Shown here: piece by piece, positions 13,311-20,687 of the stretch | Layout of the letters: each line of letters starts with the position of its first letter | Numbering within the stretch: position 1 is the stretch's first letter | Assembly: GCF_051486985.1 (NCBI RefSeq) | Contig: NZ_JAHVDV010000040.1 | Location: 2,241-38,537 of the forward strand | DNA: 36,297 nt | From: Yokenella regensburgei | GTDB taxonomy: Bacteria; Pseudomonadota; Gammaproteobacteria; Enterobacterales; Enterobacteriaceae | Reading direction: 5' to 3' | The notes under the pieces: model-generated | Databases searched by the model: none | Told to the model about the DNA's origin: nothing | The model's input: only the letters and a program-made list of their open reading frames with translations | Program-made: the position numbers and the translations under genes

Positions 13311-14594
13311 ATGGAAAACGTTCAAAGTACTCTTGTCACGCGTGAAAGCAGTGGCTGGAGAAAGAGTGATACCGTCTGGATGCTGGGCCTGTACGGTACT
13401 GCAATTGGCGCTGGCGTACTCTTCCTGCCCATTAATGCCGGGGTAGGGGGTTTAATTCCGTTAATTATTATGGCCCTGCTGGCCTTCCCGATGACCTTTT
13501 TTGCTCACCGTGGCTTAACCCGTTTTGTCCTGTCCGGCAAAAACCCGGGGGAAGATATTACCGAAGTTGTCGAAGAACATTTTGGTGTGGGTGCGGGTAA
13601 ATTAATTACTCTGCTCTATTTCTTTGCCATATACCCGATTCTGTTGGTATATAGCGTAGCCATTACGAATACCGTCGACAGCTTTATTACCCATCAACTT
13701 GGCATGGTGTCACCGCCGCGCGCTATCCTGTCGCTGATCCTGATTATCGGTATGATGGCAGTCGTGCGCTTCGGTGAAAAAATGATCGTTAAAGCGATGA
13801 GCGTGCTGGTGTTCCCGTTCGTTGCGGCCCTCATGATGCTGGCGCTGTATCTTATCCCCCAATGGAACGGCGCGGTTCTTGATACCCTCTCACTGAGCAG
13901 CGCGGCGCCCACCGGCCACGGTCTGTGGATGACCCTGTGGCTGGCGATCCCGGTCATGGTGTTCTCCTTTAACCATTCGCCGATCATCTCCTCCTTTGCT
14001 GTCGCAAAACGTGAGGAGTACGGTCAGGATGCCGAACGCAAATGCTCCCGTATCCTGAGCTTTGCCCATATTATGATGGTGCTGACGGTGATGTTCTTCG
14101 TCTTCAGCTGCGTGCTGAGCCTGTCGCCGGAAAACCTGGCCGAAGCGAAAGCCCAAAACATCTCCATTCTCTCTTACCTGGCAAACCACTTTAATGCACC
14201 AGTGATTGCCTGGATGGCACCCATTATTGCCATGATCGCCATTACTAAATCCTTCCTTGGCCACTACCTGGGGGCGCGTGAAGGCTTTAACGGCATGGTG
14301 ATTAAATCTCTGCGCGGCAAAGGCAAGTCCATTGAGCTCAACAAACTGAACAAAATCACGGCGCTGTTCATGCTGGTGACCACCTGGATTGTTGCCACCC
14401 TGAACCCGAGCATCCTCGGCATGATTGAAAACCTCGGTGGCCCGATTATCGCCGTCATCCTGTTCCTGATGCCGATGTATGCCATCAATAAAGTCCCGGC
14501 GATGCGCAAATACAGTGGTGCTATCAGCAACGTGTTTGTGGTCATGATGGGCCTGATTGCCATCTCCGCCATCTTCTTCTCGCTGTTCAGCTAA
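13311..14594 (+). CDS. sdaC: serine:H+ symporter (HAAAP family, SdaC/TdcC-like)
   Basis: 427 aa. [32 protein letters not shown].. and the rest are colinear with E. coli SdaC. Confidence 0.9.
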
Positions 14595-14658
14595 GTTTCC
14601 CGCGCCGCCTGACTGAGGCGGCGTCTCTTTTCTGCTCCGTAACTCGCATGGGTGCCAC

Positions 14659-16026
14659 ATGATTAGCGTTTTCGATATTTTCAAAATCAGCATCGGGCCG
14701 TCCAGCTCTCATACCGTCGGGCCAATGAAAGCGGGAAAACAGTTTGTTGATACCCTGCAGGAAAAAGGCCTGTTACATAAAGTCACGCGGCTGGTGGTGG
14801 ACGTTTACGGTTCGCTGTCATTAACCGGCAAAGGCCACCATACGGATATCGCCATTATCCTTGGCCTTTCCGGTTATTTACCGGAGACGGTGGATATCGA
14901 CGCCATCCCGACGATTATCCGTGACGTCAACACCAACCAGCGTCTGTTTATCGAAGAAGGGAAGCGTGAAATAAAGTTTCCGGTCGCGGAATGCATGCGT
15001 TTTCATAATGAGTTCCTGCCGCTGCATGAAAACGGTATGAGCATCACCGCATTTTGCGAGGGCAAAATTGCCCATTTCCAGACCTATTATTCCATCGGTG
15101 GCGGCTTCATTGTTACCGAAGAAAACTTTGGTAAAAGCCAGGATGCGGATATTGATATTCCTTTCCCGTTCTATTCTGCGCGTAATTTACTAACCCACTG
15201 CCATGACAATTGCCTCTCTATTTCAGCCGTGATGATGAAAAACGAGATAGCTCGTCACGGTCGGGGCAATGTTGAACAGAACATGGCGAAAATATGGGAC
15301 ACCATGCGCAATGCCATCAACCGTGGGATGAGTACCGAAGGCATTCTGCCAGGCCCACTGAAGGTGCCTCGTCGCGCCTCCGCACTGCACCGTGTGCTGG
15401 CACCGCAAAGCCAGTCCATTACCCCATTAAGTGCAATGGACTGGGTTAACATGTTTGCAATGGCGGTGGGGGAAGAGAACGCCGCGGGCGGGCGTGTGGT
15501 GACGGCCCCGACCAATGGCGCCTGCGGGATCATTCCTGCTGTTCTGGCTTATTACGATCGCTTTATCAAAACCGTAACCCCGGACATTTACATGCGCTAT
15601 TTTCTGACCGCAGGCGCGGTTGGCATTCTGTATAAGATGAATGCCTCGATTTCCGGTGCGGAAGTAGGCTGCCAGGGTGAAGTGGGTGTGGCATGTTCGA
15701 TGGCCTCAGCCGGACTTGCTGAACTGCTGGGCGGTAGCCCGGAGAAGGTGTGCATTGCTGCTGAAATTGGCATGGAGCACAATCTGGGACTGACCTGTGA
15801 CCCGGTTGCCGGTCAGGTGCAGGTGCCGTGCATTGAGCGTAACGCTATTGCGGCAGTCAAAGCCATTAACTCGGCCAGCATGGCGATGTACCGCACCAGC
15901 GACCCGAAAGTCTCTCTGGATAAAGTCATCGAAACGATGTTTGAAACCGGTAAAGACATGAATGCGAAGTACCGAGAAACGGCGCGGGGTGGGCTTGCTA
16001 TCAAAGTCGCGGTGTGCGAATCCTGA
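14659..16026 (+). CDS. sdaB: L-serine dehydratase (Fe-S, SdaA/SdaB family)
   Basis: 455 aa, [29 protein letters not shown].. matches the E. coli SdaB N-terminus. Conserved [23 protein letters not shown] and [17 protein letters not shown] motifs. Confidence 0.9.
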
Positions 16027-16072: not shown

Positions 16073-16519
16073 TTACTCTTTCTTTGCAACATCCGGCGCC
16101 TGATGTGACCAGACGACGCTATGGGAGGCAGAGGAGGTGTACCACTCGTTAATGGTTGAGTGGGCATCGTGCTTGAGAGCCGCATCTTCGGCGAATTTCT
16201 CTTTCGACGCGGTGGCCTGTTTCTTACGAATGCGGATACGGGCAGGAACGGCGGCGTTAATCTGTGCATTAAAGGCGCGTATGTGGGAGTCATACAAAAT
16301 CGACTCCAGTTGATGCAGCCGATCCAGGCCCCGCAAAATGCCAATTAAGGTGCTGAGCGTGACGGACTCGCCCAGTTCAACGCGCTTAATGGTCGCGGCG
16401 CCAACCTGAGCGCGTTCCGCCAGTTCGATTTGCGACAGTCCGAGTTGCATACGGGTTTCTTTAATTCGGCGGCACAATTCGGCGATAATTTCATTATCGG
16501 ACATCGTACTGAAGCGCAT
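16073..16519 (-). CDS. XRE-family (Cro/C1-type HTH) transcriptional regulator with a ~70-aa C-terminal extension
   Basis: 148 aa. The N-terminus LGLSQIELAERAQVGAATIKRVE is a typical XRE helix-turn-helix. GAGGA lies 6 nt upstream of the ATG. Confidence 0.7.
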   Translation of the reverse strand: MRFSTMSDNEIIAELCRRIKETRMQLGLSQIELAERAQVGAATIKRVELGESVTLSTLIGILRGLDRLHQLESILYDSHIRAFNAQINAAVPARIRIRKKQATASKEKFAEDAALKHDAHSTINEWYTSSASHSVVWSHQAPDVAKKE

Positions 16520-16772: not shown

Positions 16773-17213
16773 ATGAGTATAAAAGATAAAATATTTACGT
16801 TCTGGGGAATGATGGATGTGTTCGCTATCGGCAGCTACCTCTTTTTTTCCGTAAAAATGGGTAATCTGCCGTTCTGGTCTGACATTCGACACTTCTATGT
16901 CAATCTGTCGTTTATGCAAGTGAAGGGTGCTGACTATCTGTTGTTACAGTGTGTTTTCTTTATCTACCTGATGCTGATGGTTTCCCTGTTTTATTCTGGC
17001 TGGTGTTTCCTTAAGAAAAAACAGATTGGTATTTTGTTCATTAGCTTACAGGAGGTGATGCGGTTTTTCTCTCTCTCCTGCTCCGTTGCCTTCTTTCCTC
17101 TCATCTTACGGATCATGCGCATCGAGGATGCTCTGGTGGCCTTTATCCTCTTTCTGCTCTCGGAGACGCTTAAAATTGGCTCGTTGCAGTGGCTCAGGAA
17201 ACAGAAGGGTTAA
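16773..17213 (+). CDS. small integral membrane protein (146 aa, about 4 predicted TM helices), unknown function, low GC
   Basis: Hydrophobic segments IFTFWGMMDVFAIGSYLFFSV, YLLLQCVFFIYLMLMVSLFY, IGILFISLQEVMRFFSLSCSVAFFPLIL and ALVAFILFLLSETL. Divergent from the XRE gene across a 250-bp AT-rich spacer. GC is about 43% against about 55% in neighbours. Confidence 0.6.
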   Translation: MSIKDKIFTFWGMMDVFAIGSYLFFSVKMGNLPFWSDIRHFYVNLSFMQVKGADYLLLQCVFFIYLMLMVSLFYSGWCFLKKKQIGILFISLQEVMRFFSLSCSVAFFPLILRIMRIEDALVAFILFLLSETLKIGSLQWLRKQKG

Positions 17214-17379: not shown

Positions 17380-19011
17380 GTGTTAATTCTGCTTCACCTG
17401 CTCTCTTCGGTTGCCCTGTTAGTCTGGGGCACACACATTGTACGTACCGGCGTGATGCGCGTATTCGGTGCGCGGCTGCGCACCGTACTCAGCCGTAGCG
17501 TCGAGAAAAAAACGCTCGCCTTTAGCGCCGGGATTGGGGTAACTGCTCTGGTTCAGAGCAGCAATGCGACCACCATGCTGGTCACCTCTTTTGTGGCCCA
17601 GGATCTGGTAGCACTGGCGCCTGCGCTGGTGATTGTGCTGGGGGCGGACGTGGGAACCGCGCTGATGGCGCGCGTGCTCACTTTCGATCTCTCCTGGTTG
17701 TCGCCTTTGCTGATTTTCGTAGGGGTCATCTTCTTTCTTGGACGTAAGCAAACGCGGGAAGGGCAGCTGGGCCGCGTGAGCATCGGCCTTGGGCTTATCC
17801 TGCTGGCGCTTGAGCTTATTGTACAGGCGGTCACGCCCATTACTCAGGCGAACGGCGTACAGGTGATTTTCGCCTCACTGACGGGCGATATCATGCTGGA
17901 TGCGCTCATTGGCGCGGTGTTCGCGATCATCAGCTATTCGAGCCTGGCCGCCGTACTGCTGACGGCGACCCTGACCACGGCGGGGATCATCTCTTTCCCG
18001 GTGGCCCTCTGCCTGGTGATTGGCGCGAACCTCGGCTCTGGCTTGCTGGCGATGCTCAACAATAGCGCAGCCAATGCCGCCGCCCGCCGCGTGGCACTGG
18101 GGAGCCTGTTGTTTAAGCTGGTGGGGAGCATCGCCATTCTGCCGTTTGTGCATATGCTGGCGGATCTGATGGACGAGCTGCCGCTGCCCAAAGCTGAGCT
18201 GGTTATCTATTTCCACGTCTTCTACAACCTGATTCGCTGTCTGGTGATGGTGCCCTTTGTGGGGGCGATGGCGACCCTTTGCCAACGATTAATCCGTGAT
18301 GAACCAGAACTGGACGCCCGGCTTAAGCCGAAGCACCTGGACAGTTCTGCGCTCGACACGCCTACCCTTGCACTGGCCAATGCCGCCCGTGAAACGCTAC
18401 GCATTGGTGACGCGATGGAGCTCATGCTTGAAGGGCTGCACAAAGTGATGCACGGTGAACCCCGTCAGGAGAAGGAGCTGCGTAAGCTCGCTGATGACAT
18501 CAACGTGCTTTATACCGCCATCAAGCTTTACCTTGCCCGTATGCCCAAAGAGGAGCTGGCCGAAGAGGAATCTAAACGCTGGGCCGAAATTATTGAGATG
18601 TCGCTCAACCTGGAGCAGGCGTCCGATATTGTCGAGCGTATGGGGAGTGAAATCGCTGATAAATCGCTGGCGGCCCGGCGGGCTTTTTCCGTCGAGGGAC
18701 TCAGGGAGCTGGATGCGCTCTATGAGCAACTGCTCACCAACCTGAAGCTGGCAATGTCGGTCTTTTTCTCCGGTGATGTCACCAGCGCCCGCCGCCTGCG
18801 TCGCAGTAAGCACCGTTTTCGCATTCTCAACCGACGCTATTCTCACGCGCATGTTGACAGGTTACATCAGCAAAACGTGCAGAGCATTGAAACCAGTTCA
18901 CTGCATATGGGCCTGCTGGGTGACATGAAACGCCTCAACTCGTTGTTCTGCTCCGTAGCTTACAGCGTGCTGGAACAGCCCGACGACGATGACGGGAAGG
19001 ACGAGTATTAA
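17380..19011 (+). CDS. yjbB: Na+/phosphate cotransporter family protein YjbB
   Basis: 543 aa, GTG start, MLILLHLLSSVALLVWGTHIVRTGVMRVFGARLRTVLSRS.., colinear with E. coli YjbB. Confidence 0.95.
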   Translation: MLILLHLLSSVALLVWGTHIVRTGVMRVFGARLRTVLSRSVEKKTLAFSAGIGVTALVQSSNATTMLVTSFVAQDLVALAPALVIVLGADVGTALMARVLTFDLSWLSPLLIFVGVIFFLGRKQTREGQLGRVSIGLGLILLALELIVQAVTPITQANGVQVIFASLTGDIMLDALIGAVFAIISYSSLAAVLLTATLTTAGIISFPVALCLVIGANLGSGLLAMLNNSAANAAARRVALGSLLFKLVGSIAILPFVHMLADLMDELPLPKAELVIYFHVFYNLIRCLVMVPFVGAMATLCQRLIRDEPELDARLKPKHLDSSALDTPTLALANAARETLRIGDAMELMLEGLHKVMHGEPRQEKELRKLADDINVLYTAIKLYLARMPKEELAEEESKRWAEIIEMSLNLEQASDIVERMGSEIADKSLAARRAFSVEGLRELDALYEQLLTNLKLAMSVFFSGDVTSARRLRRSKHRFRILNRRYSHAHVDRLHQQNVQSIETSSLHMGLLGDMKRLNSLFCSVAYSVLEQPDDDDGKDEY

Positions 19012-19157
19012 GTCTGACAGAGTGGGTGGCGCAGCGGATCCACTGCACGGCGCCATCTGCCAGTGCTTATTGTTTATAGTGCAATGACTGTCTTAATGGA
19101 TAGCGCAATGGCCAGCGCTTTCATCACGGCGAGGGTCGTTTTCAGCGTTGAATTGCC

Positions 19158-19361
19158 TTAGTCACTGACTGAGCGAGATAGCTGTTCGCGGGATAAACCC
19201 GTGCTGGCTGCAACCTGTGTCATCCCTTTCGCACGCGCCACGACGCCTAACGCTTTTGCACTGTACGCGGCATCGCCTGTTTCAAACGCATCAGCCATAA
19301 AGATGGCAATTTCATCATCAACCAGCGCAGTGGCGGGATCATAGAGGGTAAGGTTGTTCAT
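19158..19361 (-). CDS. putative addiction-module antidote protein (HigA / HI1420-like HTH antitoxin), 67 aa
   Basis: MNNLTLYDPATALVDDEIAIFMADAFETGDAAYSAKALGVVARAKGMTQVAASTGLSREQLSRSVSD. Its start overlaps the stop of an upstream toxin-like reading frame by 23 nt. May be C-terminally short relative to the family. Confidence 0.6.
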   Translation of the reverse strand: MNNLTLYDPATALVDDEIAIFMADAFETGDAAYSAKALGVVARAKGMTQVAASTGLSREQLSRSVSD

Positions 19362-19665
19362 CAGTGAATATCCCCTGCTCTGTGATTGAATTTGATAATT
19401 TTTCGGCAAGGATGATGTCGTTTTCTTGAGAACGTTTATCACCATAAAGCAGAAGAATGATAACCTTCCCCTGTTATTTATAATAAATCCTGTATCCCGG
19501 CCCCCAGTGAACCCTTGGCTCACTAATGCCCTCTCCAACGGGTTACGCATCACCCGAAAGGGGATTGGCCAGGCGGAAAAGGCGAGTGGCAATAAGTGTC
19601 TTTGCCCGTCGGTCTGTAAGATTTTTTTCCCATCTACGCAACACATCGGTTGATTCCGCGTTTGT
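19339..19665 (-). pseudogene. degraded HigB / HI1419-like (RelE/ParE superfamily) toxin gene: two in-frame TAA stops and no start codon
   Basis: The minus-strand frame reads ..[83 protein letters not shown]. In-frame TAA at 19543-19545 and 19474-19476; TGA at 19339-19341. The motifs PVGEG.SE, H.GPGYRIY and ILLL.GDK are typical of this killer-protein family. Confidence 0.65.
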
Positions 19666-19808
19666 TGCTCACACAACGTTGCGCGGTCTTTCAGGCGTCA
19701 CGTTATGCAGAAAGACGCAGCAGATCACATTTAATTGGCGAGCGCTTGTGTAGAGGATTTTTTATCTGCAGTCAGGTGAGATATATTTCACCGATTACAG
19801 GAGAATTT

Positions 19809-20687
19809 ATGCTGCCAGACTCATCAACCCGATTAAATAAATACATCAGTGAGAGCGGAATCTGCTCGCGCCGCGAGGCCGACCGCTTTATCGAACAAGG
19901 CAACGTCTTTATTAATGGTAAACGCGCTGCCATTGGCGATCAGGTTAAGCCCGGTGACGTTGTGAAGGTCAACGGCCAGTTGATTGAGCCGCGCGAAGCC
20001 GATGATTTAGTGCTGATTGCGCTGAACAAACCGGTCGGTATTGTCAGCACAACCGAAGATGGTGAGCGCGATAACATCGTGGACTTCGTTAACCACAGTA
20101 AGCGCGTTTTCCCTATTGGCCGTCTGGATAAAGACTCTCAGGGGCTGATTTTTCTTACCAACCACGGCGACCTGGTCAACAAGATTTTGCGCGCCGGTAA
20201 CGATCACGAAAAAGAGTATCTGGTGACGGTGGATAAACCCGTTACCGACGATTTCATCCGTGGCATGGGCGCGGGTGTACCGATCCTGGGTACCGTCACC
20301 AAAAAATGCAAGGTCAAGAAAGAGGCACCTTTTGTGTTTCGCATTACCCTGGTGCAGGGGCTGAACCGCCAGATCCGCCGCATGTGCGAACACTTTGGAT
20401 TTGAAGTGACCAAACTGGAGCGCACCCGCATCATGAACGTCAGCCTGACGGGCATTCCACTGGGTGAATGGCGTGATCTCACCGACGATGAGCTGATCGA
20501 CCTCTTTAAACTCATCGAGAATTCGTCGTCTGAAGCGAAGCCGAAAGCGAAGGTAAAACCGAAGGCCGCAGCGACAACCGCGAAGAAACCGGCAGCCAGC
20601 GGGGCGAAAAACATGGCAAAAACCCCGGCGGAGCTGGCGTCACGCAAACGCTTTACCGCACCGGGTCGTAAGAAGAAAGGACGTTAA
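19809..20687 (+). CDS. rluF: 23S rRNA pseudouridine(2604) synthase RluF
   Basis: 292 aa, [40 protein letters not shown].., as E. coli RluF. AGGAG RBS. The track ORF start at 19650 is rejected. Confidence 0.95.

What the first reader, a model, noticed from the sequence alone, without database searches (positions are those of the whole stretch)
19158..19665. Degraded HigB/HigA-type toxin-antitoxin locus: toxin inactivated by two in-frame TAA codons, antitoxin intact; the 172-aa track ORF is a chimera
The toxin-frame translation shows strong family motifs (AKTLIATRLFRLANP.., PVGEGISE, HWGPGYRIYY, ILLLYGDKRSQENDIILAEKL). It is interrupted by TAA at 19543-45 and 19474-76, in positions where family members have sense codons, and it has no ATG/GTG at the expected N-terminus. 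The downstream antitoxin ORF (67 aa) is intact, overlaps the toxin stop, and has its own ATG. This is a classic toxin-decay, orphan-antitoxin state. The locus occupies the site where E. coli has pepE. The 172-aa ORF on the track is an out-of-frame read through the toxin remnant, fused in frame to the antitoxin, and should not be annotated as a gene.
Basis: seen in the sequence. Interest (0 to 1): 0.55.

Follow-up and report, generated by a model that had tools for sequence, protein, structure and literature searches.

The report
Dead toxin-antitoxin pair, both genes broken

Summary
On the minus strand between yjbB and rluF lies a TIGR02683 (RelE/HigB-like) toxin followed by a TIGR02684/PF21716 (Xre-HTH) antitoxin. 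The toxin frame carries TAA at exactly 19543-45 and 19474-76. The 172-aa ORF is an out-of-frame read-through artefact.

The interpretation needs one major correction: the antitoxin is not intact. Its 67-aa ORF ends at a third in-frame TAA (19158-60), which is profile position 66 of 89. Homology continues for 27 more codons to the ancestral stop at 19074-76. The truncation removes the last helix of the DNA-binding domain and 11 family-invariant residues.

Alignment with the intact orthologous pair at the same site in Atlantibacter hermannii shows further lesions:
- loss of the toxin ATG and Shine-Dalgarno sequence
- a 5-bp frameshift deletion
- two single-codon deletions
- about 255 bp missing upstream
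- loss of an 18-bp palindrome (likely operator/promoter) conserved in five genera

Intact pairs occupy this site in Atlantibacter, mainstream Yokenella regensburgei, Citrobacter and Enterobacter, and lie next to yjbB in an Enterobacteriaceae MAG.

Verdict: an ordinary, fully pseudogenised chromosomal type II toxin-antitoxin locus, not an orphan-antitoxin state. Interest is low.

The parts
19339..19650 (-). Toxin pseudogene. It corresponds to codons 7-110 of the intact 110-aa RelE/HigB-like toxin (TIGR02683) plus its ancestral TGA stop at 19341-19339.
   Evidence: TIGR02683 93.5 bits, E 7.8e-27. tblastn with the A. hermannii toxin gives 78% identity, E 3e-50. Alignments. Coordinates.
19543..19545 (-). 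Premature stop 1 in the toxin: TAA where the closest relative has AAA (Lys) in the motif GDxKPVGEG. Intact relatives have K, with one R.
19474..19476 (-). Premature stop 2 in the toxin: TAA where the closest relative has CAA (Gln) in YYKQQG.
19443..19444 (-). Junction of a 3-bp deletion. It removes the first Gly of the LLCGGDK motif, an invariant or near-invariant column.
19651..19676 (-). Degenerate 5' end of the toxin gene. The ATG and the GGGAG Shine-Dalgarno sequence are mutated, and there is a 5-bp frameshift deletion at 19652|19651. This stretch also holds the TTG (19676) that opens the artefactual 172-aa ORF.
   Evidence: Pairwise and four-way DNA alignments. Coordinates.
19715..19716 (-). 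Junction where about 255 bp of the rluF-toxin spacer found in A. hermannii is missing. The distal part of that spacer is shared by the MAG L005, so this is a deletion in this lineage. The 18-bp palindrome TGTAGTTTATAAAATACA that precedes the ATG in all intact loci is lost separately, in the degenerate stretch just upstream of the toxin 5' end (about 19660-19680).
19074..19361 (-). Antitoxin pseudogene: the full ancestral reading frame of 95 codons plus the ancestral TAA at 19076-19074 (TIGR02684 / PF21716, Xre-type HTH).
   Evidence: Read-through translation scores 98.5 bits and covers profile positions 2-88 of 89. PF21716 59.8 bits. tblastn gives 86% identity, E 2.5e-48 over residues 1-96. 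Plasmid antitoxin genes align past the stop.
19158..19160 (-). Premature stop 3: TAA at antitoxin codon 68, where the closest relative has AAG (Lys). It cuts off the last 27 codons, including the final helix of the HTH domain and 11 invariant residues.
   Evidence: Helix map of the AlphaFold model of the intact relative.
19313..19320 (-). GAT run in which one codon has been lost (DDD to DD) in the antitoxin.
19158..19361 (-). It is the N-terminal 70% of the antitoxin.
19158..19676 (-). 172-aa ORF. This is an artefact: the toxin remnant read in the antitoxin frame, fused to the truncated antitoxin.
   Evidence: Only residues 109-172 hit a family. The same open frame exists over intact toxin genes (145-aa ORF in L005) and is sometimes called as a gene (P0136).

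Best explanation
The locus is a non-functional remnant of a chromosomal type II toxin-antitoxin operon. Both genes and the regulatory region are inactivated.

How the intact system probably works (inferred from intact relatives):
- It encodes a 110-aa RelE-fold toxin, probably a ribosome-dependent mRNA endonuclease like M. tuberculosis HigB1 and V. cholerae HigB2.
- This is followed, with a 23-nt overlap, by a 96-aa antitoxin with an Xre-type helix-turn-helix domain.
- The antitoxin would neutralise the toxin and repress the operon, probably at the conserved 18-bp palindrome TGTAGTTTATAAAATACA next to the ribosome-binding site.

What is shown for the window lineage:
- The toxin has lost its ATG and Shine-Dalgarno sequence.
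- The toxin carries a 5-bp frameshift, two TAA codons, a deleted invariant Gly and 13 replacements at sites conserved in two intact relatives.
- The antitoxin carries a TAA at codon 68 of 95, a codon deletion and five replacements at conserved sites.
- The palindrome and about 255 bp upstream are gone.

Inferred order of events: the toxin was probably inactivated first, because it carries more lesions and because losing the antitoxin first would be lethal. This freed the antitoxin and the promoter to decay. No step of toxin-antitoxin function can operate now.
For: - Family membership of both conceptual translations, through the stops.
- A base-by-base alignment to the intact, syntenic A. hermannii pair lists every lesion.
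- Intact pairs sit at the same rluF|TA|yjbB site in A. hermannii, mainstream Y. regensburgei, C. freundii and Enterobacter. An Enterobacteriaceae MAG has an intact pair next to yjbB.
- Lineage-specific changes were counted at sites conserved in the other two of three lineages. The toxin has 15 amino-acid changes in the window against 3 in Atlantibacter. The antitoxin has 6 against 2.
- The antitoxin substitutions hit near-invariant columns, and the truncation removes invariant G69, N70, T72, L73, K74, T76, V79, A82, L83, L87 and K90.
- The AlphaFold model of the intact relative (pLDDT 80) has its last helix at residues 74-83, after the stop position.
- The 18-bp palindrome is conserved in five intact loci and absent from the window, with 0 matches at <= 3 mismatches.
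- No hit in the homologue search was shorter than 92 aa, so no natural 67-aa form was seen.
- The protein accession run in the deposited annotation (yjbB MGK9175633 to lysC MGK9175641) is filled exactly by the 7 intervening genes. This leaves no protein product for this locus (inference).
Against: - The relaxed-selection signal is numerically weak. The nonsynonymous:synonymous ratio on the window branch against the other branches gives Fisher p = 0.07 for the toxin and 0.21 for the antitoxin.
- The 67-aa ORF keeps an ATG and a weakened Shine-Dalgarno-like AGGGGA, so translation of a fragment from read-through transcription cannot be excluded.
- No expression data exist.
- I could not read the other two assemblies of this lineage.
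Confidence: 0.9

Rival explanations
1. The toxin is dead, but the antitoxin survives as a functional orphan. The 67-aa N-terminal fragment might still bind and neutralise related toxins that arrive on plasmids or phages (anti-addiction).
For: - The 67-aa ORF still scores above the family cut-off (72.6 bits against 53.7).
- It has its own ATG.
- The antitoxin is less eroded than the toxin (6 against 15 changes at conserved sites).
- In V. cholerae HigA2 the toxin-neutralising segment is N-terminal. This comes from my own knowledge of the published HigB2-HigA2 work and was not tested here.
Against: - The ORF stops at profile position 66 of 89.
- The truncation removes the last helix of the HTH bundle and 11 invariant residues.
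- There are substitutions at the near-invariant positions I35, Y63, P72 and G85.
- The Shine-Dalgarno sequence is weakened (AGGAGA to AGGGGA).
- The operon's promoter/operator palindrome and the toxin's translation start are lost, so there is no evident way to express it.
- No hit in the homologue search was shorter than 92 aa.
Confidence: 0.07
2. The locus is intact in the living organism, and the lesions are sequencing or assembly errors.
For: Nothing positive. I could not inspect reads or the two sister assemblies.
Against: - There are at least nine independent differences of several kinds: three nonsense substitutions (one needing two base changes), deletions of 5, 3 and 3 bp, about 255 bp missing, loss of the ATG and Shine-Dalgarno sequence, and many missense changes.
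- The flanking genes are full length and match deposited proteins exactly in three assemblies.
Confidence: 0.02
3. The TAA codons are decoded by programmed read-through or an ochre suppressor, so full-length proteins are still made.
For: All three premature stops are TAA.
Against: - The toxin also lacks a start codon and a ribosome-binding site and carries a 5-bp frameshift at its 5' end.
- The neighbouring genes yjbB and the ancestral antitoxin end in TAA as ordinary stops.
- No RNA family was found in the region.
Confidence: 0.01

Closest known systems
Intact orthologous pair of Atlantibacter hermannii: toxin P0016 (110 aa) plus a 96-aa antitoxin, loci L001-L004
   Same: - It occupies the same site (rluF | toxin | antitoxin | yjbB), with the same orientation and the same 23-nt gene overlap.
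- Identity is 78% (toxin) and 86% (antitoxin) at the amino-acid level, and roughly 85-93% at the DNA level across the coding regions.
   Different: - The Atlantibacter genes are intact and preceded by the conserved palindrome, Shine-Dalgarno sequence and ATG.
- The window copy has three premature TAA codons, three small deletions, a lost start and about 255 bp missing upstream.
NCBIfam TIGR02683 (upstrm_HI1419, RelE/ParE-family toxin) and TIGR02684 / Pfam PF21716 (dnstrm_HI1420, addiction module antidote)
   Same: Both conceptual translations score well above the curated cut-offs over nearly the whole profile.
   Different: Neither is encoded by an uninterrupted ORF, so they are pseudogene members, not functional ones.
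M. tuberculosis HigB1 (PDB 7nbu, 7awk) and V. cholerae HigB2-HigA2 (PDB 5ja8, 8a0x)
   Same: - These are the best structural matches of the AlphaFold model of the intact relative's toxin (Foldseek E 3e-4 to 3e-3, probability 1.0).
- The toxin-first gene order and an Xre-HTH antitoxin are shared.
   Different: - Sequence identity is only 15-20%.
- There is no sequence-level hit to any solved structure.
- The comparison concerns the intact relative, not the window's remnant.
Documented decay of chromosomal TA systems: ccdO157 in E. coli (cited in PMC2654758) and Photorhabdus TA erosion (PMC13617665)
   Same: - The process is the same: the TA is lost by pseudogenisation while the neighbourhood is conserved.
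- In Photorhabdus, 'toxin only' (185 copies) and 'both toxin and antitoxin' (186 copies) pseudogenised states are about equally common. The window shows the 'both' state.
   Different: The TA family and the host differ. Nothing differs mechanistically.

Membership tests
TIGR02683 (upstrm_HI1419) RelE/ParE-family toxin | Profile score above the curated cut-off (62.85 bits) over most of the profile | tested here: met
   93.5 bits, E 7.8e-27, profile positions 3-93 of 95, on the conceptual translation with X at the two stops.
TIGR02683 (upstrm_HI1419) RelE/ParE-family toxin | Uninterrupted ORF of about 100-110 aa with a start codon and a ribosome-binding site | tested here: not met
   Two in-frame TAA codons, a lost ATG and Shine-Dalgarno sequence, and a 5-bp frameshift at codons 5-6.
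TIGR02683 (upstrm_HI1419) RelE/ParE-family toxin | RelE/HigB-type fold (beta-alpha-alpha-beta4-alpha) | tested here: inconclusive
   Met for the intact relative P0016: pLDDT 86, with top PDB matches HigB1, HigB2 and RelE. It has no meaning for the window copy, which cannot be translated as one chain.
TIGR02683 (upstrm_HI1419) RelE/ParE-family toxin | Toxicity (mRNA cleavage) neutralised by the cognate antitoxin | not testable with these tools
   This needs a kill-rescue assay.
TIGR02684 / PF21716 (dnstrm_HI1420) antitoxin | Profile score above the curated cut-off (53.7 bits NCBIfam; 27 bits Pfam) | tested here: met
   98.5 bits with read-through and 72.6 bits for the 67-aa ORF. PF21716 gives 59.8 and 46.1 bits.
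TIGR02684 / PF21716 (dnstrm_HI1420) antitoxin | Full-length ORF (92-100 aa) containing the complete Xre-type HTH domain | tested here: not met
   The ORF covers profile positions 2-66 of 89. The TAA is at codon 68. The last helix (residues 74-83 of the modelled relative) and 11 invariant residues lie beyond the stop.
Type II TA operon of this family | Toxin gene first, with the antitoxin immediately downstream and overlapping | tested here: met
   The ATG at 19361 lies 23 nt upstream of the end of the toxin frame at 19339, as in L001.
Type II TA operon of this family | Conserved 18-bp palindrome TGTAGTTTATAAAATACA (putative operator / -10) next to the Shine-Dalgarno sequence | tested here: not met
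   It is present in five intact loci from five lineages. The window has 0 matches at <= 3 mismatches.
Canonical HigB/HigA (Proteus vulgaris Rts1 type) | Sequence membership in the Pfam HigB-like toxin families | tested here: not met
   The toxin translation matches no Pfam family at E <= 0.01. P. vulgaris HigB ranks only 48th in the fold search (E 0.16). The similarity is limited to gene order and the RelE superfamily fold.
'Orphan antitoxin' state (toxin decayed, antitoxin functional) | Antitoxin gene intact and expressible | tested here: not met
   The antitoxin has a premature TAA, a codon deletion and four substitutions at near-invariant positions. The upstream regulatory region is lost.

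The most novel reading that the evidence does not exclude
The 67-aa N-terminal antitoxin fragment might still be made from read-through transcription. It might act as a stand-alone neutraliser (anti-addiction peptide) against related TIGR02683 toxins arriving on mobile elements.

Separately, the pair is kept at one fixed site in several enterobacterial genera. This lineage could therefore serve as a natural double knock-out for asking what a long-resident chromosomal TA pair does.
Probability: 0.05. Interest if true: 0.4.

Novelty: new member of a known kind. Interest (0 to 1): 0.13.

Why it matters
The finding matters mainly for annotation:
- The 172-aa ORF and the 67-aa ORF should not be called as genes. 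The locus should be marked as two pseudogenes spanning 19074-19676.
- It is a clean, fully resolved example of late-stage erosion of a chromosomal toxin-antitoxin pair whose intact orthologues sit at the same site in sister genera.
- It adds a data point to a well-documented process and raises no new biological question.

Tried and rejected
- **Exact look-ups.** The 67-aa and 172-aa ORFs are not in the protein collection. YjbB of the window has no contig on record. I therefore could not read the locus in the two sister assemblies.
- **Genome-collection scan with the antitoxin.** It returned one close enterobacterial MAG and otherwise distant Pseudomonas and Burkholderiales loci. It missed A. 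hermannii because every peptide pattern differs by one residue. It did not return the window's own genome.
- **Solved structures.** Sequence and profile searches found nothing significant for either protein. Only fold comparison of AlphaFold models gave matches.
- **Promoter and terminator scans.** Counts were at chance level in both the window and the intact locus, so they were not used as evidence.
- **Rfam.** No match in 18900-19900.
- **Remnants of pepE or ccdAB.** tblastn with the Citrobacter proteins found none in the window or in the A. hermannii spacer.
- **Extra spacer in A. hermannii.** The 255 bp contain no notable ORF.
- **Plasmids.** A distant DNA search found only antitoxin genes at 66-75% identity, so there is no evidence of a plasmid origin.
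- **Relaxed-selection test.** The trend goes the expected way but is not significant on so few sites.

Full report
**What is in the sequence**

The finding lies on the minus strand between yjbB (17380-19011, plus strand) and rluF. The true rluF start is the ATG at 19809, on the plus strand.

Six-frame translation shows one frame reading ...[102 protein letters not shown] second frame reads MNNLTLYDPATALVDDEIAIFMADAFETGDAAYSAKALGVVARAKGMTQVAASTGLSREQLSRSVSD*GNSTLKTTLAVMKALAIALSIKTVIAL*.

The 67-aa ORF (19361-19158) and the 172-aa ORF (19676-19158) are both in the ORF list.

**Family assignment and significance**

With X at the stops, the toxin frame scores 93.5 bits (E 7.8e-27; cut-off 62.85) against NCBIfam TIGR02683 over profile positions 3-93 of 95.

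The antitoxin frame scores 98.5 bits (E 1.9e-28; cut-off 53.7) against TIGR02684 over positions 2-88 of 89. The 67-aa ORF alone reaches only positions 2-66 and 72.6 bits. Pfam PF21716 behaves the same way, and the toxin matches no Pfam family.

In the 172-aa ORF only residues 109-172 match anything. Its first 105 residues are the toxin remnant read in the antitoxin frame. However, the antitoxin is interrupted by a third in-frame TAA (19160-19158), and homology continues for 27 more codons to the ancestral stop at 19076-19074.

**Intact relatives at the same site**

The closest intact toxin (P0016, 110 aa, 78% identity) comes from Atlantibacter hermannii. There the order is rluF (minus), toxin (110 aa), antitoxin (96 aa, overlapping by 23 nt), yjbB (minus). 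This is the same site and orientation as in the window.

The same arrangement with intact genes occurs elsewhere:
- in mainstream Yokenella regensburgei (105 + 92 aa)
- in Enterobacter (100 + 95 aa)
- in Citrobacter freundii, where the site reads rluF-ccdBA-toxin-antitoxin-pepE-yjbB
- next to yjbB in an uncultured Enterobacteriaceae MAG

In E. coli, all the listed top matches have only pepE between yjbB and rluF; all 5426 genomes matched the flanks. Because the TA pair and pepE coexist in Citrobacter, however, the pair is not a replacement of pepE.

**Inventory of lesions**

The DNA alignment of the window with A. hermannii (coordinates) shows the following.
1. The ATG and the GGGAG Shine-Dalgarno sequence of the toxin are mutated, and 5 bp are deleted at 19652|19651 (codons 5-6).
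2. AAA (Lys) has become TAA at 19545-43.
3. CAA (Gln) has become TAA at 19476-74.
4. A 3-bp deletion at 19444|19443 removes the first Gly of LLCGGDK.
5. In the antitoxin, one GAT of a GAT run is lost (19320-19313).
6. AAG (Lys) has become TAA at 19160-58, which needs two base changes.
7. About 255 bp present in A. hermannii are missing at 19716|19715. The distal part of this stretch is shared with the MAG, so it is a deletion in the window lineage.
8. An 18-bp palindrome, TGTAGTTTATAAAATACA, lies about 10 bp upstream of the toxin ATG in all five intact loci, although the rest of their upstream DNA does not align. It has no match in the whole window even at three mismatches. I take it to be the operator and/or -10 element. 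That is an inference.

**Amino-acid erosion**

I used A. hermannii and the MAG as two intact references. The window toxin has 15 changes at positions where the two references agree, including the two stops and L45P. A. hermannii has 3 such changes.

The antitoxin has 6 such changes: the stop plus H6L, I35S, Y63S, P72S and G85A. A. hermannii has 2. I35, Y63, P72 and G85 are invariant or near-invariant columns in 23 family members.

The excess of nonsynonymous changes on the window branch goes in the expected direction but is not significant (p = 0.07 and 0.21).

**What the truncation removes**

An AlphaFold model of an intact relative of the antitoxin (P0137, pLDDT 80) has helices at residues 9-12, 16-29, 32-46, 48-55, 59-65 and 74-83. 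Its fold matches Xre-type HTH proteins such as HipB, C.Esp1396I and M. tuberculosis HigA2, with weak E-values but probabilities up to 1.0.

The window's stop falls after the helix at 59-65. The last helix and invariant residues G69, N70, T72, L73, K74, T76, V79, A82, L83, L87 and K90 are therefore lost. No hit in the antitoxin homologue search (E <= 1e-20; best 120 listed) was shorter than 92 aa.

The toxin relative P0016 models with pLDDT 86 as beta-alpha-alpha-beta4-alpha. Its best PDB matches are M. tuberculosis HigB1 on the ribosome (7nbu, E 3e-4), V. cholerae HigB2 (5ja8, 8a0x) and RelE proteins. The Proteus HigB prototype ranks only 48th.

Sequence-only searches of the PDB found nothing. 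'HigB/HigA-type' is thus right for gene order and fold class. The precise family is TIGR02683/TIGR02684.

**Mechanism**

The following is inferred for the intact system. The toxin is a RelE-fold, ribosome-dependent mRNA endonuclease. An Xre-HTH antitoxin neutralises it and also represses the operon at the palindrome.

The following is shown for the window. Every component is damaged: promoter/operator, toxin start, toxin reading frame and the antitoxin DNA-binding domain.

The order of events is inferred. The toxin probably died first. It carries the most lesions, and loss of the antitoxin in the presence of an active toxin would be lethal. The antitoxin and the promoter then drifted.

This is the 'both pseudogenised' end state. 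In Photorhabdus it is about as frequent as the toxin-only state, with 186 against 185 copies (PMC13617665). It was described earlier for ccdO157 in E. coli (cited in PMC2654758).

**Rivals**

A functional orphan antitoxin, or a neutralising N-terminal fragment, cannot be strictly excluded, because the 67-aa ORF keeps an ATG and a weakened Shine-Dalgarno sequence (AGGGGA). It lacks a recognisable promoter, a complete fold and conservation at key residues, so I give it 0.07.

Sequencing error (0.02) is implausible given at least nine independent lesions of different kinds and perfect flanking genes. Stop-codon read-through (0.01) is also implausible, because the toxin has no start and carries a 5' frameshift.

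**Source organism**

The flanking proteins match exactly proteins deposited as Yokenella regensburgei in three assemblies. The accession run from yjbB to lysC leaves no number for a protein at this locus. This suggests it was not annotated as a protein there, which is an inference.

However, the window's yjbB and rluF are only 76-79% identical at the DNA level to those of mainstream Y. regensburgei, which includes the protein KFD25168. They are 82-86% identical to those of A. hermannii. The species label of the source is therefore doubtful.

**Verdict**

This is a real but ordinary feature: a fully eroded chromosomal type II toxin-antitoxin locus.

Noticed in passing
L001 3974-3991; L005 3164-3181; L030 3664-3681; L035 3470-3489; L037 3474-3491; absent from window: An 18-bp palindrome, TGTAGTTTATAAAATACA, sits just upstream of the Shine-Dalgarno sequence and ATG of the toxin gene. 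It is conserved in intact loci of five enterobacterial lineages, although the surrounding upstream DNA does not align. It is a likely operator overlapping a -10-like TATAAA.
   Followed up: partly
window 19074-19650 versus flanks 17380-19011 and 19809-20687: Synonymous divergence between the window and A. hermannii is much lower in the TA cassette than in the flanks. It is 0.33 for the toxin and 0.24 for the antitoxin, against 0.91 for yjbB and 1.67 for rluF. Against the MAG L005, cassette and flank values agree. This suggests the cassette was exchanged between these lineages after they split, by recombination at this site. The decay would then be relatively recent.
   Followed up: partly
whole window; compare L029-L033: The window's proteins are deposited as Yokenella regensburgei in three assemblies. 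Its yjbB and rluF are only 76-79% identical in DNA to those of mainstream Y. regensburgei, against 82-86% to Atlantibacter hermannii. The source may be mislabelled or a distinct taxon.
   Followed up: partly
L035/L036 2695-4887 (Citrobacter freundii): In Citrobacter the rluF-yjbB interval holds a ccdA/ccdB pair, the TIGR02683/4 pair and pepE side by side. The interval is a small hotspot that collects toxin-antitoxin modules.
   Followed up: no
window 13311-16026: A HAAAP serine/threonine permease and an L-serine ammonia-lyase lie between metH and yjbB. Their 90% clusters are dominated by Klebsiella and Raoultella. In the Y. regensburgei, Citrobacter and Enterobacter loci, metH is directly next to yjbB. 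This is probably an acquired insertion.
   Followed up: no
L005 3354-3791; L034 4001-4438; proteins P0136, P0146, P0162, P0165, P0200: The antitoxin frame stays open for about 50 codons upstream across intact toxin genes. Public gene calls of 144-150 aa include this out-of-frame extension, sometimes instead of the toxin. This is the same artefact as the window's 172-aa ORF.
   Followed up: partly
window 19650-19808 and 20500-20687: The mechanical ORF for rluF starts at the TTG at 19650, but homology places the start at the ATG at 19809 (MLPDSS). The lysine-rich C-terminal tail of RluF is far more diverged from Atlantibacter (59-65% DNA identity) than the rest of the gene.
   Followed up: no
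window 16073-16519 (minus) and 16773-17213 (plus): A 148-aa HTH_3-type regulator and a 146-aa hydrophobic ORF lie next to yjbB. They are shared with A. hermannii and the MAG L005 but not with the Y. regensburgei, Citrobacter or Enterobacter loci.
   Followed up: no
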